Positions 14,128 through 60,045 of a stretch of DNA of 64,000 nucleotides are shown piece by piece. The DNA is taken from the sequence record KC801932; one strand, written 5' to 3'. The notes below the pieces were generated by a model. It did no database searches. It saw only the letters and a list, made by a program, of their open reading frames with translations, and was not told where the DNA came from. This stretch comes from Escherichia phage Lw1. Position numbers and translations under genes: made by a program. Within the stretch, counting starts at the first letter, position 1. The number at the start of each line of letters is the position of its first letter.

Positions 14128-16119
14128 ATGGCTTTACAATCTCCAGGTATTGAAACCAAAGAAACATCGGTACAATCTACCGTTGTTCGAAATTCAACTG
14201 GTCGCGCTGCCATTGTTGGTAAATTTTCATGGGGGCCAGCTTATCAGATCCGTCAGATTTCTAACGAAGTCGAACTGGTAAACTATTTTGGTTCCCCAGA
14301 CAACCTAACCGCTGATTATTTCATGAGTGCTGTTAACTTCTTGCAGTACGGTAATGATCTCCGTGTGGTTCGTGTTGTCGATAAAGATGCCGCAAAAAAC
14401 GCAAGCGCAATTTTTAACCAGATCAAAACAACCATTGCTTCGCAGGGTTCCAACTACACCGTTGGCGACGTAATTAAGGTAAAATATAGCAACAACGTAG
14501 TTGAAGAAAATGGTAAAGTGTCAAAAGTTGACAGTAACGGCAAAATCCTTGCGGTAGTCATCCCAAGCGAAAAAATCGTTGCTCGTGCAAAACAGATCGG
14601 GACTTATCCAGATATTTCTACTGGCTGGACTACTGAAATCGTTTCTCAGTCTTCTGGTGTGTCTGCGTCAATCACGATCGATGGTATCGAAAGCGATTCT
14701 GGTATCACTCTGCTGAACCTGGATATTGCTAAAGAAACCATTCAAGGAACTGCGTTCCAGACACTGACCCAGAAATACCAGATCCCATCTGTTGTGGCTC
14801 TGTATCCTGGCGAACTGGGTTCTACTGTAGAGGTGGAGATTATCTCCAAAGCTGCTTACGATTCTGGCGCTATGATTTCCGGTTTCCCTTCTGGGATCTC
14901 CGTTAAAAACAGCGGTCGCTCTGTGATGACTTATGGTCCACAGACCGAAAACCAGTACGCTTTTGTTGTGCGTCGTGGTGGTATTGTACAAGAATCTTTC
15001 ATCGTGTCAACAGAAAAAACCGACAAAGATATCTACGGCGTAAACATCTATATGGATGACTTTTTCGCTAACGGTGGTTCACAGTACGTATTCGGTACTT
15101 CTATGAACTGGCCTAAAGGCTTCTCCGGTATTCTAGAATTTGGTGGTGGTTTGTCCTCAAACGACACCGTAGGCGCTGATGAACTGATGACTGGTTGGGA
15201 TATGTTCGCTGATCGCGAAGCCCTTCACGTCCCGCTGCTGATTGCTGGTGCTTGTGCTGGTGAAACCGTAGAAGTAATGTCTACTGTTCAGAAGCATGTT
15301 ATCTCGATCGGTGACGAACGTCAGGATTGTACTGTGTTTGTATCGCCTCCGCGTTCTCTTCTGGTGAACATTCCTCTTGCTCAGGCAGTGGATAACATCG
15401 TTGAATGGCGTATGGGATATACAATCAGTGGTAACACTCCGGTAGACAACAACCTGAACGTAAGTTCAAGCTATGGCTTCCTGGATGGTAACTATAAATA
15501 TCAGTATGATAAATACAATGACGTGAACCGCTGGGTTCCGCTGGCAGGTGATATCGCTGGCCTGTGTGTTTACACTGATAGCGTTGCGCAACCGTGGATG
15601 TCTCCGGCTGGTTACAACCGTGGTCAGATCCGTAACTGCATTAAACTGGCTATTGAACCGCGTACTGCACACCGTGACGCGATGTATCAAGTTCAGATTA
15701 ACCCGGTAACAGGTTTTGCAGGTGGCTCTGGTTTCGTTCTGTTCGGTGATAAAACACTGACTAATGTTCCGAGTCCGTTCGATCGTATCAACGTTCGTCG
15801 CTTGTTCAACATGATCAAGAAAGACATCGGGGATAACGCGAAATACAAACTGTTTGAAAACAACGACGATTTCACCCGTGCTTCGTTCCGTATGGATACT
15901 GGTCAGTACATGACGAATATTCGTGCGCTGGGTGGTTGCTATGATTACCGTGTAATCTGCGATACCACGAACAACACGCCGGATGTAATTGATCGTAACG
16001 AGTTTGTAGCGACCATTTACGTGAAACCGCCACGTTCTATCAACTACATCACTCTGAACTTCGTAGCAACGTCTACAGGCGCAGATTTCGATGAATTGGT
16101 AGGGCCACAAGCCGTATAA
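14128..16119 (+). CDS. 18: tail sheath protein gp18
   Basis: 663 aa; N-terminus SPGIETKETSVQSTVV and C-terminus RSINYITLNFVATSTGADFDEL match recalled T4 gp18. Confidence 0.92.
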   Translation: MALQSPGIETKETSVQSTVVRNSTGRAAIVGKFSWGPAYQIRQISNEVELVNYFGSPDNLTADYFMSAVNFLQYGNDLRVVRVVDKDAAKNASAIFNQIKTTIASQGSNYTVGDVIKVKYSNNVVEENGKVSKVDSNGKILAVVIPSEKIVARAKQIGTYPDISTGWTTEIVSQSSGVSASITIDGIESDSGITLLNLDIAKETIQGTAFQTLTQKYQIPSVVALYPGELGSTVEVEIISKAAYDSGAMISGFPSGISVKNSGRSVMTYGPQTENQYAFVVRRGGIVQESFIVSTEKTDKDIYGVNIYMDDFFANGGSQYVFGTSMNWPKGFSGILEFGGGLSSNDTVGADELMTGWDMFADREALHVPLLIAGACAGETVEVMSTVQKHVISIGDERQDCTVFVSPPRSLLVNIPLAQAVDNIVEWRMGYTISGNTPVDNNLNVSSSYGFLDGNYKYQYDKYNDVNRWVPLAGDIAGLCVYTDSVAQPWMSPAGYNRGQIRNCIKLAIEPRTAHRDAMYQVQINPVTGFAGGSGFVLFGDKTLTNVPSPFDRINVRRLFNMIKKDIGDNAKYKLFENNDDFTRASFRMDTGQYMTNIRALGGCYDYRVICDTTNNTPDVIDRNEFVATIYVKPPRSINYITLNFVATSTGADFDELVGPQAV

Positions 16120-20436: not shown

Positions 20437-22017
20437 ATGTCTAAGAAAAACGAATTGATGGAAAAATGGAACGATCTTCTGGAATCTCAGGAAGGTTTAC
20501 CGGATATCGCTACCAAATCCAAAAAACAACTGGTCGCTGCCATTCTGGAAGCACAGGAAAAAGACGCTGAAACCGATCCGGTTTATCGCGACGAAAAAAT
20601 TGTGGAATCCTTCGGTGGTTTCCTGGCAGAAGCAGAAATTGCTGGCGATCATAACTATGACCCGACCAACATCGCTTCTGGTAAATCCAGCGGTGCTATC
20701 ACCAACATCGGTCCTGCTGTAATCGGTATGGTTCGCCGTGCGATCCCTAACCTGATTGCGTTCGACATTTGCGGTGTTCAGCCTATGACTGGTCCTACTG
20801 GTCAGGTGTTCGCTCTCCGTGCTGTCTACGGTAAAGATCCTCTGGCTGGCGGTACTCCGGCAGATGTTCGTGAAGCATTCCATCCGATGTTTGCCCCGGA
20901 TACCATGTATTCTGGTCAGGGTGCTGCACCAAGCAACGGTTTCGCGAAAATCACTACTGGTACTGCAATTGCAACTGGCGCTATCGTTTACCACTTCTTC
21001 GAAGAAACTGGTATTGCGTACTTCCAGAACGTAACTTCTGGTAACGTAACCGTAACTGGTGCTACTCCGGCAGAACTGGACCTGGCTGTTACCGCAGAGA
21101 ACGAAAAAGGTACTCTGGCTGAAATTTCTCAGGCTATGGCTACCAGTGTAGCAGAACTCCAGGAAAACTTCAACGGTTCCAGTTCTAACCCGTGGAACGA
21201 AATGGCTTTCCGTATCGACAAACAGGTTATCGAAGCCCGTAGCCGTCAACTGAAAGCACAGTATTCCGTTGAACTGGCACAGGATCTCCGCGCTGTTCAC
21301 GGTATGGACGCTGACGCAGAACTGTCTGCAATCCTGGCAACTGAAATCATGCTGGAAATCAACCGCGAAATCGTTGATCTGATCAACTTTACCGCGCAGA
21401 TTGGTAAAACTGGTTTCACCAAGACTGTAGGCTCTAAAGCTGGTGCGTTTGACTTCCAAGATCCGGTAGATATTCGCGGCGCTCGTTGGGCTGGTGAAAG
21501 CTACAAAGCTCTGTTGATTCAGATCGACAAAGAAGCGAACGAAATCGCACGTCAAACAGGCCGTGGTGCTGGTAACTTCATCATCGCTTCCCGTAACGTG
21601 GTTTCCGCTCTGGCTCGTATCGACAGCGGTATTACTCCGGCAGGTCAGGGCTTGCAGAAGTCTCTGAACGTTGACACTACCAAAGCGGTATTCGCTGGTG
21701 TTCTGGGTGGCACTTACAAAGTGTACATCGACCAGTACGCTCGTAGCGATTACTTCACCGTTGGCTTCAAGGGTGATAACGAAATGGATGCTGGTATCTA
21801 CTACGCTCCATACGTTGCGCTTACCCCGCTGCGTGGTTCTGATCCGAAGAACTTCCAGCCAGTAATGGGCTTCAAAACTCGTTACGGTATCGGTATCAAC
21901 CCGTTTGCGAACTCTCGCACTCAGGCTCCGGCAGATCGTATCACCTCCGGTATGATCACTAAAGACATGGTCGGCAAAAACGCATACTTCCGTAAAGTAT
22001 ACGTTAAAGGTCTGTAA
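20437..22017 (+). CDS. 23: major capsid protein gp23
   Basis: 526 aa; long near-identical stretches to T4 gp23 (VRRAIPNLIAFDICGVQPM..PTGQVFALRAVYGKDP, EAEIAGDHNYDPTNIASG). Confidence 0.95.
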   Translation: MSKKNELMEKWNDLLESQEGLPDIATKSKKQLVAAILEAQEKDAETDPVYRDEKIVESFGGFLAEAEIAGDHNYDPTNIASGKSSGAITNIGPAVIGMVRRAIPNLIAFDICGVQPMTGPTGQVFALRAVYGKDPLAGGTPADVREAFHPMFAPDTMYSGQGAAPSNGFAKITTGTAIATGAIVYHFFEETGIAYFQNVTSGNVTVTGATPAELDLAVTAENEKGTLAEISQAMATSVAELQENFNGSSSNPWNEMAFRIDKQVIEARSRQLKAQYSVELAQDLRAVHGMDADAELSAILATEIMLEINREIVDLINFTAQIGKTGFTKTVGSKAGAFDFQDPVDIRGARWAGESYKALLIQIDKEANEIARQTGRGAGNFIIASRNVVSALARIDSGITPAGQGLQKSLNVDTTKAVFAGVLGGTYKVYIDQYARSDYFTVGFKGDNEMDAGIYYAPYVALTPLRGSDPKNFQPVMGFKTRYGIGINPFANSRTQAPADRITSGMITKDMVGKNAYFRKVYVKGL

Positions 22018-22033
22018 GACTTTACACAAGAAA

Positions 22034-22058
22034 GGCAACCTACGGGTTGCCTTTTTTT
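22034..22058 (+). terminator. rho-independent terminator after gene 23
   Basis: GGCAACC-tacg-GGTTGCC followed by TTTTTTT. Confidence 0.7.
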
Positions 22059-22109
22059 ATGGTGTAAATAGATACAGGATAAAAGCCCTCTAATTCAGGA
22101 ACCAAAGAA

Positions 22110-23408
22110 ATGAGTGAAAAACATTACACAATTCACAAGTTGATGCGTCAGTCTACGCTTCCCCCTGGTAAACGCGAAAAGGTTATCAACGAAGCAACTG
22201 GAACGACCGACATCAACGTACAGAACACGCGCCCAGAACTGGTTTCTTTGACTCGCGCTGTTAACAACCTGATCTATCATGAACTGGTTGCTGTACAAGA
22301 AACAAATTTACCCGTAGCAACTCTGTTTGGTGTTCGCTATCGTAACCCTAACGGCGACATGACTTTCTCCAGCGCTGCAACCTATTCAGGCCGCATATCT
22401 GGACGTACAGACATCGACGATATCGATCTGGCTAAGGCATACGTCAAAGGCGATTTATTCAAGCACGATGTCACTGACGTTGTGTATGAGGTCATCGAAC
22501 CTGTAACGCTAAACGCGCTGGATACTGATAAAGACACCGCAATCATGAAAGCTGTGTTCCAAAGTAAAATTCGTTTGGTTAGCGAAGCCGCAGACACTTC
22601 AAAATATGAAACCAGTGAAGATATCGCATCAACCTCTTTCCAGATGGATCGCTGGAACATTCCGGTTCGTTCACGTAAGTTTAAAACTGAAATGACCGTG
22701 GAATTGATGCAGGATCTGGAAGCAAACCAGTTTGAAGCCGATGGGGTAATTGAAGATATCCTGGGTACGGTTGCAAGCGAAGAAGTCAACAAAGATATTA
22801 TTCAGACGCTGATCACCGTTTCCAAACGATATAACGTTGATGGTGTAGTTGTCGATGGTATTTTTGACGGTACAACCGCATACACTGCGAAGGATGCTCC
22901 AGCATTGGGCCGCATACTCTATCAATTAGCGTGTGAAATGGGTCAAGAAATGAATAGAACGACTTCATTTGATGCAACCTACGTCCTCGCTAGTGCTCGC
23001 GTTGTAGGCGTTCTGGCTGCGTCTGGTTGGATGACCGAAACCGACGAACAACACCCGCTGGCAACTGGTAAACTTCAAAACGGTTATTATGTCTATACCG
23101 ACACGAATACACCGTTTGATTATCTGCTTACCGGATGCAAATACGATCTGGGTGATATGGATCACGTAGGTTCTCTGTTCTTCACTCCGTACACCGAAGC
23201 GGATGAAGCAGGTTCAATCAAGGTATCCGTAGATCCTGCATCACTGCAACCGAAAGTTGCTATTCTGATGCGTTACGGTTTATCTGTGAACCCATACACA
23301 ACGGAATCCGACTCTGAACGGTTGACCAAAGGCGATGACTGGTCGAATCTGGCTGGTAAATCCAAACTCAGTCAAATCGTAGGTATTAAATTACCTAAGC
23401 TGGGTTAA
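22110..23408 (+). CDS. 24: capsid vertex protein gp24
   Basis: 432 aa; gp23 paralogue-like fold signatures (YGLSVNPYT near the C-terminus parallels gp23 YGIGINPFA); synteny. Confidence 0.85.
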   Translation: MSEKHYTIHKLMRQSTLPPGKREKVINEATGTTDINVQNTRPELVSLTRAVNNLIYHELVAVQETNLPVATLFGVRYRNPNGDMTFSSAATYSGRISGRTDIDDIDLAKAYVKGDLFKHDVTDVVYEVIEPVTLNALDTDKDTAIMKAVFQSKIRLVSEAADTSKYETSEDIASTSFQMDRWNIPVRSRKFKTEMTVELMQDLEANQFEADGVIEDILGTVASEEVNKDIIQTLITVSKRYNVDGVVVDGIFDGTTAYTAKDAPALGRILYQLACEMGQEMNRTTSFDATYVLASARVVGVLAASGWMTETDEQHPLATGKLQNGYYVYTDTNTPFDYLLTGCKYDLGDMDHVGSLFFTPYTEADEAGSIKVSVDPASLQPKVAILMRYGLSVNPYTTESDSERLTKGDDWSNLAGKSKLSQIVGIKLPKLG

Positions 23409-23426
23409 TCAAGTTTTGAGAAGACC

Positions 23427-23455
23427 ATTATAATAACAAAGATCAAGAAGGTCAA
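23427..23455 (-). promoter_or_regulatory. sigma70-like promoter (TTGACC-N17-TATAAT) reading leftward, antisense to the 3' end region of gene 24
   Basis: Minus-strand -35 = rc of GGTCAA (23450-23455), -10 = rc of ATTATA (23427-23432); mirror image of the uvsY promoter. Confidence 0.4.
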
Positions 23456-23457
23456 AC

Positions 23458-23621
23458 GAGCGAAGCGAGTTTTCACGAACGAAGTGAGTGATGGGTACTA
23501 CTAACTACATAATTATATTTTTATATTTTATATATAGAGAAAATGTAGTTTTTGGTATGGTTTTTAACCAACTGTAAACTATCCGTCTTCGCTTCGCTCA
23601 TTCATGTACTCACTTCGTTCG
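23458..23621. repeat. interleaved inverted repeats flanking an AT-rich spacer
   Basis: gagcgaagcgag (23458-23469) vs its reverse complement in cttcgcttcgctc (23587-23599); cgaacgaagtgagt (23476-23489) vs exact reverse complement actcacttcgttcg (23608-23621); core motif CGAAG(C/T)GAG occurs four times. Confidence 0.7.
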
Positions 23622-23626
23622 TAGAT

Positions 23627-23654
23627 TTGACTTCTTGATCATGATGGTTATAAT
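23627..23654 (+). promoter_or_regulatory. near-consensus sigma70-like promoter (TTGACT-N16-TATAAT) upstream of uvsY
   Basis: TTGACT 23627-23632, TATAAT 23649-23654; 24 nt upstream of the uvsY ATG. Confidence 0.6.
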
Positions 23655-23677
23655 ACTACTTTGTTTTGAGGTGATTC

Positions 23678-24100
23678 ATGGCTGAACTAAAACTTGAAGA
23701 TTTACAGGCTGAACTCGAAAAGGATATGTTGATCGACCCTCTGAAACTACAGAGTGAATCAGCAGACATTCCTAAGATTTGGTCTAAGTGGCTTCGATAT
23801 CATTCGAATGCTAAGAAAAAACTGATCCAGCTACAGGCCAGGAAAGAAGCAGAAGTGAAAGAACGGCTTCTGTACTATACTGGAAGACACGAAACCGAAA
23901 TGACTGATGTCATTTACACGGGTTCAGGTGAAATCAAGATCGCGATCAACGGTGATCCGAAAATTGTTGAGGTTAACAAACTGATTCAGTATTTCGAACT
24001 GATTGCGGAATTCACCAGTAAAGCCCTGGACATTGTTAAGAACAAAGGATATTCTATCAAAAATATGTTGGAAATCCGAAAACTTGAAAGTGGTGCATAA
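23678..24100 (+). CDS. uvsY: recombination mediator protein UvsY
   Basis: 140 aa; LEDLQAELEKDMLIDPLKLQ, YSKWL..HS, ARLLYYTGR match recalled T4 UvsY (137 aa). Confidence 0.88.
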   Translation: MAELKLEDLQAELEKDMLIDPLKLQSESADIPKIWSKWLRYHSNAKKKLIQLQARKEAEVKERLLYYTGRHETEMTDVIYTGSGEIKIAINGDPKIVEVNKLIQYFELIAEFTSKALDIVKNKGYSIKNMLEIRKLESGA

Positions 24101-24101
24101 A

Positions 24102-24284
24102 ATGGCAGAATTACAAGAAGACTGTAAATGTGTGGTTTGCAAAAGACCGATGGTGACTGCTACTGGTTTTGTTACTGAATCTGGTCCCGTGTGTGGCCCT
24201 ATCTGTGCGCAGTATTTGATTGATCGCAACAAATCCGGTCTGAATGAAGCTGACGATCTGAACGAAGTTCAGATGTTGCTATAG
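24102..24284 (+). CDS. small cysteine-rich protein (uvsY.-1/-2-like position)
   Basis: 60 aa from ATG 24102 directly after the uvsY stop; C-x-C-x-x-C ... C-x-x-x-C pattern suggests a zinc-binding module; the track ORF 24003-24284 is the same frame extended upstream. Confidence 0.5.
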   Translation: MAELQEDCKCVVCKRPMVTATGFVTESGPVCGPICAQYLIDRNKSGLNEADDLNEVQMLL

Positions 24285-59520: not shown

Positions 59521-60045
59521 ATGGCAATTGTTGGAGTACCCGGATGGATCGGGTCGTCTGCGGTAGCAGAAACAGGACAGCGTTGGATGTCTGCGGCTGG
59601 TAGTGCTGTTCGTATTGGTGCGCCATTATGGATGTCGCAAATGGCAAACCAATCAGTATATAACATTTCCATTCCGATTTTTGAACGTTATTATAATGGT
59701 ATTCGTTATCGTGGGTGTTGGGGGACGGGTTGGAACTTCCCATATTCTAAACCTGGTTGGAACGCTACTCCTGGTGGTAGTTTTAACGGGCTGGCTTACG
59801 GGACTTGTGTTGCAGTGCAAAAACATCTCGATGGCGAATATAGCGTATTAACTATTCAAAACGGTCCTGCTGCAAACTTCCGACTCACTACTGATGACGG
59901 CGCGGTGTTCAACTTCGTTGATACCGGACGATATGACGCTGGTTATAGAAACTACAAAATCGATCCGACTCAACATTTTGTATGGTTCGAATATCTTAAC
60001 GCTCGTGTAGGACAAACAAGGCAAGGATTGGTAGCTATAAGATAA
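59521..60045 (+). CDS. 38: gp38-like protein (N-terminal fibre-tip attachment domain only)
   Basis: 174 aa; N-terminus MAIVGVPGWIGSSAVAETGQRWMS closely matches the recalled N-terminus of T2-type gp38 adhesins (MAVVGVPGWIGSSAVNETGQRWMS); lacks the long glycine-rich receptor-binding segment. Confidence 0.6.
   Translation: MAIVGVPGWIGSSAVAETGQRWMSAAGSAVRIGAPLWMSQMANQSVYNISIPIFERYYNGIRYRGCWGTGWNFPYSKPGWNATPGGSFNGLAYGTCVAVQKHLDGEYSVLTIQNGPAANFRLTTDDGAVFNFVDTGRYDAGYRNYKIDPTQHFVWFEYLNARVGQTRQGLVAIR

What the first reader, a model, noticed from the sequence alone, without database searches (positions are those of the whole stretch)
23409..23677. Palindromic intergenic element with mirror-image outward-facing promoters between gene 24 and uvsY (candidate origin or regulatory hub)
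Seen directly: a near-consensus sigma70-type promoter TTGACT-N16-TATAAT (23627-23654) faces uvsY, and a mirror copy TTGACC-N17-TATAAT on the opposite strand (23427-23455) faces gene 24. Between them are two inverted-repeat pairs, gagcgaagcgag (23458-23469) with its reverse complement at 23587-23599 and cgaacgaagtgagt (23476-23489) with its exact reverse complement at 23608-23621. They bracket an AT-rich core of about 100 bp (23491-23586, e.g. aattatatttttatattttatatatagag). The flanking sequences aagttttgag (23411-23420) and ttgttttgag (23661-23670) are near-identical direct repeats. In T4, one replication origin, oriF, coincides with the uvsY promoter region, so an AT-rich unwinding element with flanking protein-binding repeats and a promoter is a plausible origin. 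The leftward promoter would produce RNA antisense to the end of gene 24.
Basis: partly seen in the sequence, partly recalled or inferred. Interest (0 to 1): 0.6.

Follow-up and report, generated by a model that had tools for sequence, protein, structure and literature searches.

The report
Three-copy hairpin-box origin-like element
The palindromic spacer before uvsY is real, and it is one of three near-identical ~165-bp DNA elements in this RB16-like T4-type phage; they sit close to where T4 has its origins oriE, oriF and oriG, and the same element lies next to a Rep-like gene in bacterial defence islands, so it is most likely a replication-initiation site of a kind not described for T4-type phages.

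Summary
Two 11/12 sigma70-type promoters face outward, inverted repeats bracket a core of 12-17% GC, and a 9/10 direct repeat lies outside them.

The window comes from an RB16-like Pseudotevenvirus, and this spacer holds copy 1 of a three-copy, ~165-bp element (window 23458-23622). All copies share one orientation. They lie at 24|uvsY, 3|p185 and rnh|55, each 0-3.5 kb in gene order from T4 oriF, oriE and oriG.

The 'repeats' are four small hairpin boxes of the form N2-5-GA-RC-GNA-GY-GA-N'2-5, containing the d(GCGAAGC) mini-hairpin. The purine-rich strand is + on the left arm and - on the right. Compensatory changes support them. An inner inverted repeat brackets an invariant TATATTTTATATATAGAG. 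It exists in at least four compensating sequence types, and all copies in a genome share one type.

The same element, in matching types, lies 219 nt from a Gp2/YagK-like Rep-family gene in enterobacterial islands and plasmids that carry Gabija or TIR cargo. Box pairs also sit upstream of uvsY, gene 55 and gene 1 in distant T4-like contigs.

Best reading: a replication-initiation element, with the promoters as auxiliaries. This is inferred, not shown.

The parts
23458..23622 (+). The conserved element proper, copy 1 of 3 per genome: left boxes, AT-rich core, right boxes. This is the stretch that aligns between the three paralogous copies and with the island copies.
   Evidence: The alignment of 15 copies shows homology between paralogues starting at GAGCGAAGCGA and ending at the last box. 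Patterns find 2-3 sites per genome, three in all.
23454..23472 (+). Box A hairpin on the + strand: AAAC-GA-GC-GAA-GC-GA-GTTT, with the GAA loop at 23462-23464.
   Evidence: The inner pair was paired in 52 of 52 boxes. The outer stem differs between copies while staying complementary (AAAC/GTTT, AAAT/ATTT, GT/AC, CT/AG).
23473..23491 (+). Box B hairpin on the + strand: TCAC-GA-AC-GAA-GT-GA-GTGA, with the GAA loop at 23481-23483.
   Evidence: Other copies carry GACAC/GTGTC, ACAC/GTGT or TTCAC/GTGAA as the outer stem.
23496..23510 (+). Left inner repeats: a partial TACTACT followed by AACTACAT (23503-23510).
   Evidence: AACTACAT pairs with 23543-23550. Other lineages have ATGTACTG, ATGTCTAC or AAATGTCC here, each with a matching partner on the right.
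23522..23539 (+). The motif TATATTTTATATATAGAG, between the inner repeats at the GC minimum. It is identical in nearly all copies read; the exceptions are listed under evidence.
   Evidence: Identical in the phage and island copies aligned or listed. The exceptions are CfP1 c1 (one T fewer), CX12 and Cedecea (GAG to GAA) and JC221 (TATATAAGAAG). GC is 12.5-17.5%.
23543..23550 (+). Right inner repeat ATGTAGTT, complementary to 23503-23510.
   Evidence: 85% of cells paired against 19-46% with slid partners, and 6 of 8 pairs changed on both sides.
23555..23570 (+). Conserved GTAT..TTTTTAACCA block of the core. A/T tracts at about 23520, 23528, 23542, 23551 and 23563 are spaced roughly one helical turn apart.
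   Evidence: Conserved columns. The tract spacing was read directly. Any bending is inferred.
23587..23601 (-). Inner right box. The purine-rich hairpin is on the - strand (GA-GC-GAA-GC-GA). In this phage the stretch 23566-23597 is identical to copy 2 of RB16, which indicates gene conversion between copies.
23607..23623 (-). Outer right box hairpin on the - strand: TAC-GA-AC-GAA-GT-GA-GTA.
23427..23455 (-). Leftward sigma70-type promoter, TTGACC-N17-TATAAT. It is outside the paralogous unit and no ORF lies downstream of it. Its transcript would be antisense to the 3' end of gene 24. A GATC sits in the spacer.
   Evidence: 11/12; only ORFs of 31 aa or fewer downstream. It is conserved in RB43, CfP1, GAP161, EcRAM-01 and JC221 (TTGATC-N16-TATAAT) and in m19879 (TTGATT-N17-TACAAT), read directly.
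23627..23654 (+). Rightward sigma70-type promoter, TTGACT-N16-TATAAT, facing uvsY (ATG at 23678). A GATC sits in the spacer.
   Evidence: It is conserved in all orthologues.
23411..23420 (+). Left copy of the flanking direct repeat (aaGTTTTGAG), at the predicted start site of the leftward promoter.
   Evidence: It is conserved in the RB43 group but absent in m19879. Its significance is unclear.
23661..23670 (+). Right copy of the flanking direct repeat (ttGTTTTGAG). It overlaps the predicted start site of the uvsY transcript and the Shine-Dalgarno sequence GAGG.

Best explanation
The spacer holds one of three copies of a conserved cis-acting DNA element that most likely serves as a replication-initiation site (origin) of RB16/RB43-type phages.

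Proposed mechanism (inferred, not shown):
1. The two outward promoters fire early. By the twin-domain effect they drive negative supercoils into the about 170 bp between them.
2. The core, at 12-17% GC and with phased A/T tracts, melts.
3. A factor not yet identified reads the invariant TATATTTTATATATAGAG and the type-specific inner repeats.
4. The four GNA-triloop hairpin boxes fold on the strand that is purine-rich in each arm: + on the left, - on the right. Hairpins in those positions are on the leading-strand template of forks leaving the core. They could therefore act as single-strand initiation signals for primer synthesis or helicase loading in both directions, as ssiA and ssiB do in RSF1010 oriV.

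What is shown directly:
- the anatomy of the element
- three copies per genome in one orientation
- concerted evolution of the copies
- compensatory changes in the hairpins and in the inner stem
- synteny with the neighbourhoods of three T4 origins
- presence of the same element beside a Rep-family gene in circular and integrative bacterial elements

What is inferred: origin activity, the role of the promoters, hairpin formation in vivo, and the identity of any initiator.
For: (1) Copy number and position. The core pattern and the box pattern hit three sites per genome in RB16, RB43, CfP1 and a 178.8-kb IMG/VR phage, all on the same strand. In RB16 the sites are 24|uvsY, gene 3|p185 and rnh|gene 55. 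T4's annotated rep_origins are oriF at the 5' end of uvsY, oriG 2.2 kb from rnh, and oriE 3.4 kb from gene 3. The T4 replication review notes that oriE, oriF and oriG lie where transcription diverges (PMC3016281).

(2) Origin-like anatomy. Two sets of repeats in opposite orientation flank a core of 12-17% GC.

(3) The boxes are hairpins of the d(GCGAAGC) mini-hairpin class.
- The R/Y pair is paired in 52 of 52 boxes, with 13 changes on both sides.
- The two flanking layers are paired in 48 and 44 of 52 boxes, with 12 and 15 double changes.
- Overall 76% of cells are paired, against 20-44% with slid partners.
- JC221 keeps the GAA loop on entirely different stems.
- Such mini-hairpins occur at the G4 complementary-strand origin, in RSF1010 ssiA and in N4 hairpin promoters (PMC13037366).

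(4) Purifying selection. This non-coding spacer is as conserved as its coding flanks or more so. Against m19879 it is 63% identical, while the flanks are 52-54%. The central motif is nearly invariant.

(5) Concerted evolution. All three copies in a genome carry the same inner-repeat type. The window's copy 1 has a stretch converted from copy 2.

(6) An orphan promoter. The leftward promoter has no gene to express, yet it is conserved.

(7) The same element lies 219 nt downstream of a YagK/YfjJ 'inovirus-type Gp2' gene.
- The gene matches Pfam PF11726 at E = 6e-11 and gives a weak REP_ORF2-G2P hit.
- It is found in E. coli CX12, Cedecea davisae, a Citrobacter plasmid and many metagenome contigs.
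- It is also on pTR_1_35, a 10.8-kb circular molecule with no other annotated replication gene.

(8) Deep conservation of position. In distant T4-like contigs, box pairs sit upstream of uvsY (L056, L069), upstream of gene 55 (L035, L054) and upstream of gene 1 (L051). The strand carrying the purine-rich box is not tied to the direction of the flanking genes.
Against: - There are no replication data of any kind for these phages.
- The two T4 origins that are understood, oriF and oriG, work differently: a middle promoter with a DUE downstream forms an R-loop. The 29 kb of T4 fetched around oriE, oriF and oriG contain no such boxes.
- No initiator was found. The Gp2-like protein has no tblastn match in 50,697 phage records. 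The neighbouring gene p185 does not follow the inner-repeat type. The island Gp2 proteins do not separate type 2 from type 3.
- Nearest-neighbour DNA folding gives the individual boxes no special stability (z about +0.7 to +1.5). The hairpin case therefore rests on covariation and on published mini-hairpin chemistry.
- Box pairs are also common in bacterial and archaeal genomes, in REP-like arrays and at the tips of long palindromes. The box alone therefore does not mark an origin.
- KP15-type relatives lack the element at this locus.
- The synteny argument is weakened because origins and the element both favour the few points where transcription diverges.
Confidence: 0.5

Rival explanations
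1. Programmed recombination or break site. The palindrome or its hairpins are extruded and cut by a structure-specific nuclease, such as gp46/47 (SbcCD-like) or endonuclease VII. The resulting ends start recombination-dependent replication and promote module exchange between phages and islands.
For: - Crossed and nested inverted repeats, and a whole-element fold with z = -5.9.
- Gene conversion between copies.
- Homology breakpoints between islands fall inside the element: the E. coli matches end at query position 1173 and resume at 1186.
- The cargo next to the element varies between islands.
- Copy 3 sits beside genes 55-47-46.
Against: - Cleavage of a hairpin needs no invariant AT-rich motif and no type-specific inner repeats.
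- In this window the long-range arms are crossed, so a clean cruciform cannot form.
- Three direct repeats of 165 bp would promote deletions, yet they are stably kept.
- This reading overlaps the main explanation rather than excluding it.
Confidence: 0.15
2. Transcriptional control region. The boxes and core bind a regulator, or act as an insulator, to control the flanking outward promoters of uvsY, gene 55, p185 and their divergent partners.
For: - Strong promoters flank all three copies.
- Box pairs recur upstream of uvsY and gene 55 in distant T4-like phages.
- A GATC is conserved in both promoter spacers.
Against: - The distance from box to -35 differs between copies: 3 nt at copy 1 left and about 19 nt at copy 3 left. 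Copy 2 left has only a late-type promoter.
- In islands the element lies between convergent, divergent or co-directional genes.
- The strand of the boxes is not tied to gene direction.
- The leftward promoter at copy 1 controls no gene.
Confidence: 0.12
3. A selfish or passively spreading palindromic module, MITE-like or the origin of the Gp2-type mobile elements, that has entered the phage genome and does nothing for the phage.
For: - TIR-like arms and an 8-nt direct repeat, GTTTTGAG, flank copy 1.
- The same element occurs in islands and plasmids at 89-92% identity.
- Its natural partner there is a Rep-family gene.
Against: - The copies are at the same three loci in every genome examined, and no empty or polymorphic sites were seen.
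- Copy 1 is present in lineages as distant as 74-77% UvsY identity.
- Conservation is strong.
- The target-duplication-like repeat is absent at copies 2 and 3 and in m19879.
- No phage homologue of the Rep gene was found.
Confidence: 0.08
4. A T4-type oriF. The uvsY promoter transcript forms an R-loop in the 5' part of uvsY and primes replication, and the palindrome upstream is incidental.
For: T4 oriF uses the uvsY transcript as primer (annotation; PMC3016281). A strong promoter faces uvsY here.
Against: - There is no MotA box.
- The sequence downstream of the promoter is 35-42% GC, not a marked DUE.
- This reading does not explain the three-copy element, the island copies or the orphan leftward promoter.
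Confidence: 0.05
5. A small structured RNA gene or an RNA-level signal such as a terminator or processing site.
For: Covarying stems. Late transcripts from gene 24 must run into the element, because no terminator follows gene 24.
Against: - There is no Rfam match, even at E = 10 or at gathering thresholds in other loci.
- No promoter-like site points into the core.
- The purine-rich hairpins are on opposite strands in the two arms.
- Copies 2 and 3 have no co-directional upstream gene.
- No U-run follows the hairpins in most copies.
Confidence: 0.03

Closest known systems
RSF1010 (IncQ) oriV with ssiA and ssiB, and the G4-type complementary-strand origin
   Same: Stable hairpins containing a C-GNA-G mini-hairpin lie on opposite strands in inverted orientation next to an AT-rich stretch, so that priming would run outward on both strands (PMC13037366; anatomy).
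   Different: - No RepB'-type primase or RepC initiator is known in these phages.
- There are four hairpins rather than two.
- The conserved tandem G.A motif is not a described feature of ssiA or ssiB.
- Priming has not been tested.
T4 oriF, also called ori(uvsY)
   Same: Same genomic place, the 5' side of uvsY with a promoter facing uvsY. The other two copies lie near the counterparts of oriG and oriE.
   Different: - T4 oriF is a MotA-dependent middle promoter with a DUE downstream and an R-loop primer. T4 origins share no sequence motif (PMC3016281).
- Here the AT-rich core is upstream of two sigma70-type promoters, and the three sites share about 165 bp at 79-87% identity.
- No boxes occur in the T4 origin regions.
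Origins of phage-inducible chromosomal islands (SaPI/PICI) and iteron plasmids. The comparison rests on my own knowledge of Ubeda et al.
   Same: Two sets of short repeats flank an AT-rich region, directly next to the initiator gene. In the enterobacterial islands the element lies 219 nt from the Gp2-like gene.
   Different: - The outer repeats here are hairpins rather than duplex iterons.
- The neighbouring gene belongs to the HUH-related YagK/YfjJ family, not a Pri-Rep helicase.
- In the phage no initiator gene is adjacent.
PeSL promoter-early stem-loop cassettes of T4-type phages (PMC2839356, PMC4122927)
   Same: A sigma70-like early promoter next to a stem-loop in an intergenic region of a T4-type phage. 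Both are implicated in exchange between repeated copies.
   Different: - PeSLs are simple terminator hairpins plus a promoter, and they are numerous in the hyperplastic regions.
- This element has three copies, a complex 165-bp body and no U-runs, and its promoters lie outside the repeated unit.
Double-strand origins of HUH-Rep replicons (rolling-circle plasmids, geminivirus- or circovirus-type stem-loops)
   Same: A stem whose sequence varies by compensating changes encloses an invariant AT-rich loop, with short direct repeats beside it. A Rep-family gene is adjacent in the islands.
   Different: - The loop is about 32 nt, far longer than a nonanucleotide loop.
- No Rep homologue was found in phages.
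- The island Rep sequences do not follow the repeat type.

Membership tests
T4 oriF/oriG-type R-loop origin | MotA-dependent middle promoter: a MotA box (TGCTT) near -30 in place of a -35 hexamer | tested here: not met
   Both promoters have good -35 hexamers, TTGACT and TTGACC, at 16-17 nt spacing. No TGCTT is present in the -30 regions (read).
T4 oriF/oriG-type R-loop origin | A+T-rich DNA unwinding element downstream of the promoter | tested here: not met
   The AT-rich core, 23500-23559 at 12-17% GC, lies upstream of both promoters. The sequence downstream of 23661 is 35-42% GC.
T4 oriF/oriG-type R-loop origin | Location at the 5' end of uvsY | tested here: met
   T4 rep_origin oriF is at 115321, six bases inside the 5' end of uvsY. 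The element ends 55 nt before the uvsY ATG.
T4 oriF/oriG-type R-loop origin | Drives autonomous plasmid replication in infected cells | not testable with these tools
   Needs the plasmid amplification and transduction assay.
ssi-type priming signals (G4 oric, RSF1010 ssiA/ssiB) | Stable hairpin with a GNA/GNNA mini-hairpin on the template strand | tested here: met
   54 unique boxes were listed and 52 counted; all counted have C-GNA-G closed by a pair that covaries (GC 39, AT 12, CG 1). 76% of cells are paired, against 20-44% with slid partners. Stability itself is taken from the literature, because the folding model gives none.
ssi-type priming signals (G4 oric, RSF1010 ssiA/ssiB) | Two signals on opposite strands, oriented for outward synthesis | tested here: met
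   The purine-rich hairpin strand is + at 23454-23491 and - at 23587-23623.
ssi-type priming signals (G4 oric, RSF1010 ssiA/ssiB) | Primase-dependent primer synthesis at the hairpin | not testable with these tools
   Needs in vitro priming on single-stranded arms.
Iteron/AT-rich origin next to its initiator gene (plasmid or PICI type) | Repeated sites flanking an AT-rich region | tested here: met
Iteron/AT-rich origin next to its initiator gene (plasmid or PICI type) | Adjacent initiator gene whose specificity matches the repeats | tested here: inconclusive
   In islands a Gp2/YagK-like gene lies 219 nt away, but its sequence does not separate repeat types 2 and 3. In the phage no such gene was found, and p185 does not follow the type.
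PeSL cassettes | Many copies per genome, concentrated in hyperplastic regions | tested here: not met
   Three copies per genome and one in this 64-kb window. The loci lie among core genes.
PeSL cassettes | The stem-loop is an effective intrinsic terminator next to an early promoter | tested here: not met
   No terminator-like site was called in 23409-23677. Hairpins lack U-runs in most copies.
MITE / small transposon | Terminal inverted repeats plus a target-site duplication | tested here: inconclusive
   Arms are inverted, and an 8-nt GTTTTGAG flanks copy 1. No such duplication was seen at copies 2 and 3 or in m19879.
MITE / small transposon | Insertion polymorphism: copies at non-orthologous sites, or empty sites in relatives | tested here: not met
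   The same three loci are occupied in RB16, RB43, CfP1 and the IMG/VR phage. 60 of the 62 matching phage records carry nearly all of copy 1.
Known RNA families (Rfam 15) | Match to a covariance model | tested here: not met
   Only snoRNA noise at E of 1.2 or more. Nothing over the boxes in 17 further loci.

The most novel reading that the evidence does not exclude
RB16/RB43-type phages use a sequence-defined, three-copy origin built from DNA mini-hairpins. A family of enterobacterial mobile elements carries type-matched copies of that origin, so that an infecting T4-like phage replicates them, and perhaps packages them. These elements consist of a large serine recombinase, a Gp2/YagK-like gene, the element, and defence cargo such as Gabija or a TIR effector. 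They would then be satellites, or infection-amplified defence islands, of a virulent T4-type phage. The hairpin-box module itself would be an ancient initiation signal shared across the T4 superfamily.
Probability: 0.25. Interest if true: 0.9.

Novelty: new variant of a known kind. Interest (0 to 1): 0.72.

Why it matters
The review of T4 replication initiation states that T4's origins share no local motif, and that the mechanism of most of them is an open question (PMC3016281).

A close relative with three near-identical, compact candidate origins at the corresponding loci would give a defined sequence to mutate, swap and assay. The natural 'types' of its inner repeats would point to whatever factor reads them.

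The link to bacterial islands suggests that virulent T4-type phages may have origin-mimicking parasites or sensors. The islands carry the same element, in the same types, beside a Rep-family gene and next to Gabija or TIR cargo. I know of no such relationship described for T4-type phages, and the paper searches found none.

The hairpin box, with its GNA triloop and tandem G.A pairs, is far more widespread than these phages. It may be a general DNA-level signal that deserves its own study.

Tried and rejected
- Rfam searches of the region at E up to 10, and of 17 other loci, found no RNA family.
- BLAST of the element against the window found no second copy. The other copies lie outside the window.
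- PeSL cassettes were considered and rejected on copy number and structure.
- A late promoter inside the core was considered. The phage does use TATAAATA (9 sites against 2.7 expected), but the element contains none.
- p185, the gene next to copy 2, was considered as the initiator. It has no Pfam domain, belongs to a PHROG of unknown function, has no similarity to Gp2, and does not follow the repeat type.
Type 2 and type 3 proteins are up to 97% identical.
- A phage homologue of Gp2 was sought by tblastn and none was found.
- DNA folding of single boxes showed no predicted stability. This is a limit of the energy model.
- Large-scale GC skew showed no switch at the element beyond what gene orientation explains.
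- A region-by-region identity table gave unreliable numbers because of free end gaps in the alignment, and I discarded it (second half).
- Reading both boxes as coding sequence (they read ERSE in one frame) was rejected. The boxes occur in both orientations, out of frame and in non-coding DNA, and their variable positions 3, 6 and 9 are the symmetric positions of the hairpin.
- Literature searches for the box sequences, for RB43 origins and for YagK/YfjJ function found nothing relevant.
Full report
WHAT THE WINDOW IS

The region matches Escherichia phage RB16 (Pseudotevenvirus) at 95.6% identity over 1.4 kb. Gene 24 (capsid vertex, 22110-23408, +) is followed by a 269-bp spacer and then uvsY (23678-24100, +). 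No feature is annotated in this spacer in RB16, or in the two RB43 records, except that AY967407's longer gene-24 model overlaps its start.

CHECK OF THE OBSERVATION

- Promoters. TTGACT-N16-TATAAT lies at 23627-23654 (+) and TTGACC-N17-TATAAT at 23455-23427 (-). Both score 11/12. Only seven sites in the 64-kb window reach that score on both strands together, with about 2.4 expected.
- Inverted repeats. One pair is an exact 15-mer (23475-23489 / 23608-23622). The other is 14 nt at 93% (23455-23468 / 23589-23602). The promoter arms are also inverted repeats of each other.
- Core. GC falls to 12.5-17.5% at the centre of the core.
- Direct repeats. The 9/10 repeats at 23411-23420 and 23661-23670 are there.

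Two refinements follow.

- The two boxes are variants of one 15-mer, ACGA[G/A]CG[A/T]AG[C/T]GAGT.
- In this phage the pairs are crossed (A B ... A' B'), whereas in RB43, CfP1 and others they are nested. Long-range pairing of the arms is therefore not the conserved property.

THE ELEMENT IS ONE OF THREE COPIES

A pattern taken from the core (TATATATAGAG-N15-35-TTTTTAACCA) and a pattern for the left boxes each hit RB16, RB43, CfP1 and a 178.8-kb IMG/VR phage at two to three places per genome. Together they give three sites per genome, all on the same strand.

In RB16 the sites are:
- 24|uvsY at 137.9 kb. This is the copy present in the window.
- Between gene 3 and the hypothetical gene p185, next to genes 2, 4 and 53, at 100.9 kb.
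- Between rnh and gene 55 at 31.2 kb.

The window contains only the first copy.

An alignment of 15 copies shows that similarity between paralogues begins at the first box and ends at the last box (window 23458-23622). The promoters and the GTTTTGAG repeats lie outside this unit and are specific to each copy. Paralogues within a genome are 79-87% identical.

In the window, 23566-23597 is identical to copy 2 of RB16 rather than to RB16's copy 1. This indicates gene conversion between copies.

THE BOXES ARE HAIRPINS

Each box reads N2-5-GA-RC-GNA-GY-GA-N'2-5. I collected 54 unique boxes from phage and island copies. Two were overlapping off-register windows, so 52 were counted.

- The R/Y pair is paired in all 52 (GC 39, AT 12, CG 1).
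- The two layers outside the tandem G.A are paired in 48 and 44 of 52, with 12 and 15 changes on both sides.
- Overall 76% of cells are paired. The figure is 20-44% when partners are slid by 1-3 columns. None of 500 shuffles reaches the observed covariation score.
- Yersinia phage JC221 keeps the GAA loop on quite different stems, TTCGC/GCGAA and ATGACC/GGTCAT.

The middle of the loop is the position that varies freely between A and T. The core GCGAAGC is the published 'mini-hairpin' DNA. It melts near 76 C, and it occurs at the G4 complementary-strand origin, in RSF1010 ssiA and in N4 hairpin promoters (PMC13037366).

The nearest-neighbour folding model does not reproduce this stability. The hairpin claim therefore rests on covariation and on the literature.

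The purine-rich strand that forms the hairpin is + on the left arm and - on the right arm.

THE CORE

An 8-bp inverted repeat brackets the nearly invariant TATATTTTATATATAGAG. It comes in at least four sequence types:
- AACTACAT / ATGTAGTT
- ATGTACTG / CAGTACAT
- ATGTCTAC / GTAGACAT
- AAATGTCC / GGACATTT

The first three types keep the same register. Type 4, and the window (one base shorter on the right), are shifted by 1-2 nt. In total 85% of cells are paired, against 19-46% with slid partners, and six of eight pairs change on both sides. Only nine distinct rows were available.

Some copies carry a second, direct repeat on the left. All three copies in a genome have the same type. Otherwise very similar phages differ in type. 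RB16 is type 1 and the IMG/VR phage is type 2, yet their p185 proteins are 95.8% identical.

The spacer as a whole is as conserved as the coding flanks, or more so. Against m19879 the spacer is 63% identical and the flanks are 52-54%.

POSITION RELATIVE TO T4 ORIGINS

The T4 record annotates three relevant origins:
- oriF at 115321, the 5' end of uvsY
- oriG at 152947, 2.2 kb from rnh
- oriE at 79355, 3.4 kb from gene 3

The three copies therefore fall in the neighbourhoods of T4's three most active origins. The review notes that these origins lie where transcription diverges. It also states that T4 origins share no motif (PMC3016281).

The fetched T4 regions contain no boxes, so this is correspondence of place, not of sequence.

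THE SAME ELEMENT IN BACTERIA

A metagenome scan found the complete element in a second setting. It lies 219 nt downstream of a 240-aa YagK/YfjJ 'inovirus-type Gp2' gene, or in one contig upstream of that gene. The gene matches PF11726 at E = 6e-11 and gives a weak REP_ORF2-G2P hit.

Named examples:
- the E. coli CX12 chromosome
- Cedecea davisae DSM 4568
- Citrobacter freundii plasmid p6_C
- pTR_1_35, a 10.8-kb circular molecule. Its annotated genes are a large serine recombinase, the Gp2-like gene, a resolvase and cargo, with the element beside the Gp2-like gene and no other replication gene.

The other flank varies. It carries Gabija GajA/GajB in one contig, a TIR effector in another and unknown genes elsewhere. 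The neighbouring genes are convergent, divergent or co-directional.

Island copies come in the same three inner-repeat types as the phages. They are 89-92% identical to a phage copy of the same type, which is closer than phage paralogues are to each other.

The element is rare in E. coli, occurring in 2 of 5,426 complete genomes. The Gp2-like protein has no tblastn match in the phage collection. Its sequence does not separate types 2 and 3.

BOX PAIRS ELSEWHERE

The pattern GAGCGWAGCGA-N2-10-GAACGWAGTGAG hits 52 stretches of IMG/VR and at least 96 stretches of bacterial and archaeal genomes. About 0.6 would be expected by chance under uniform base composition; this is my own estimate.

Many bacterial hits are REP-like arrays or the tips of long palindromes. 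Across 390 unique boxes the flanks are complementary in 82% and 66% of cases at the first two layers, against 51% and 30% in shuffles.

Among distant T4-like contigs the pair sits at these positions:
- upstream of uvsY (L056, a perfect A B-core-B' A' palindrome; L069)
- upstream of gene 55 (L035, L054, and by gene order probably L044, where the contig ends at the box), in the arrangement uvsW-X-[box]-55
- upstream of gene 1 (L051)

The strand carrying the purine-rich box is not fixed relative to the flanking genes.

Position is thus conserved far beyond the RB43 group, and the signal acts at the DNA level.

INTERPRETATION

The evidence shows a discrete, selected, cis-acting DNA element. Its function is inferred.

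The best-supported reading is a replication-initiation site. The points in its favour are:
- the origin-like anatomy
- hairpins of a class known from priming sites, placed on opposite strands for outward synthesis
- three copies at origin-equivalent places
- an orphan but conserved outward promoter that makes sense as a transcriptional activator of unwinding
- concerted, type-specific evolution that suggests one trans-acting reader
- a Rep-family neighbour in small circular and integrative elements

The main weaknesses are:
- no experimental data exist
- no initiator has been identified
- the architecture differs from T4 oriF and oriG
- the box is widespread in settings that are not obviously replicative

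The rivals are a programmed recombination or break site, a transcriptional control region, a selfish palindromic module, a T4-type R-loop origin driven by the uvsY promoter alone, and an RNA element. They are weighed in the structured sections of this report. The recombination reading overlaps the main one, since T4 origins are also recombination hotspots (my own knowledge of Kreuzer's work).

NOVELTY

I found no description of this element in the papers searched. It differs from PeSL cassettes.

I rate it a new variant of a known kind: an origin-type element with ssi-like hairpins in a T4-type phage. It has an unexpected, type-matched counterpart in bacterial defence-carrying mobile elements.

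Noticed in passing
loci L092-L187 (genome contigs) and L032-L069 (viral contigs): The hairpin-box pair GAGCGWAGCGA-N2-10-GAACGWAGTGAG is widespread in bacteria, archaea and unrelated phages. Examples are Coriobacteriaceae RUG13877 with 15 or more copies, Prosthecobacter, Bacteroidales and Halobacteria. It often forms REP-like arrays of GNA-loop hairpins or sits at the tip of a long palindrome. It is in no Rfam family. A few GC-rich hits are probably coding sequence (E-R-S-E in acidic haloarchaeal proteins).
   Followed up: partly
L036, L039, L041, L043, L067 and others (IMG/VR contigs of 106-110 kb): In a group of phage contigs of about 108 kb, one box pair forms the apex of a 14-bp-stem hairpin (CCCCTTTATCTCTT...AAGAGATAAAGGGG) in an intergenic region between genes of unknown function.
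   Followed up: partly
L133, L165, L183 (NZ_JBHSCL010000010.1, 178,077 bp, labelled Flagellimonas marina CGMCC 1.15774): This 'bacterial' contig carries all three copies of the element and a p185 gene 99% identical to that of an RB43-like phage. It is almost certainly a complete Pseudotevenvirus genome contaminating the assembly. L173, from a Neobacillus MAG that carries a type-3 island copy, looks mis-binned in the same way.
   Followed up: partly
window 23441-23444 and 23636-23639: A GATC (Dam site) lies in the spacer of each outward promoter. It is kept in every orthologue read (RB43, CfP1, GAP161, EcRAM-01, JC221, m19879), although the surrounding spacer sequence changes.
   Followed up: no
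window 22017-22110 compared with L001 1534-2172: RB16 has a Seg-like GIY-YIG homing endonuclease gene between genes 23 and 24, and the window's phage lacks it. The window instead has only an intrinsic terminator (about 22031-22059) and a late-promoter-like TGTAAATA before gene 24.
   Followed up: no
window 24259-24271 (+), 59909-59921 (-), 14746-14758 (-): There are three further perfect 5-bp hairpins with a C-GNA-G triloop, for example TGAAC-GAA-GTTCA near the end of uvsY.-2. They lack the tandem GA and are not part of the element.
   Followed up: no
L008 / L009 (KP15-type phages), about 330 nt upstream of uvsY: Slopekvirus relatives (84% UvsY identity) have no element at this locus. They have a terminator hairpin after gene 24 followed by three or four AT-rich repeated early promoters, each with GATC. 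This looks like a PeSL-type array.
   Followed up: partly
L021 5139-5246 and L022 (IMG/VR m19879, m31418): In the most distant phages that carry copy 1, the rightward promoter first drives a 36-codon ORF with four-cysteine zinc-ribbon spacing (MKIIKIESDWSCKHCGGVLWNAGGKCSNPKCGRENH), inserted before uvsY.
   Followed up: no
L111 5605 and L162 5564 (Pseudomonas / Stutzerimonas): A box pair directly follows what reads like the 5' half of a tRNA gene (GGCACATAGCTCAGTTGGTTAGAGCACC). It may be an interrupted tRNA or an integration junction.
   Followed up: no
L189 9072-9623 (E. coli C4) and L078 11691-12242: The 183-aa hypothetical protein that lies beside the element in one island also occurs, without the element, immediately after the integrase of a lambdoid prophage. 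Defence or moron genes are often found in that position.
   Followed up: no
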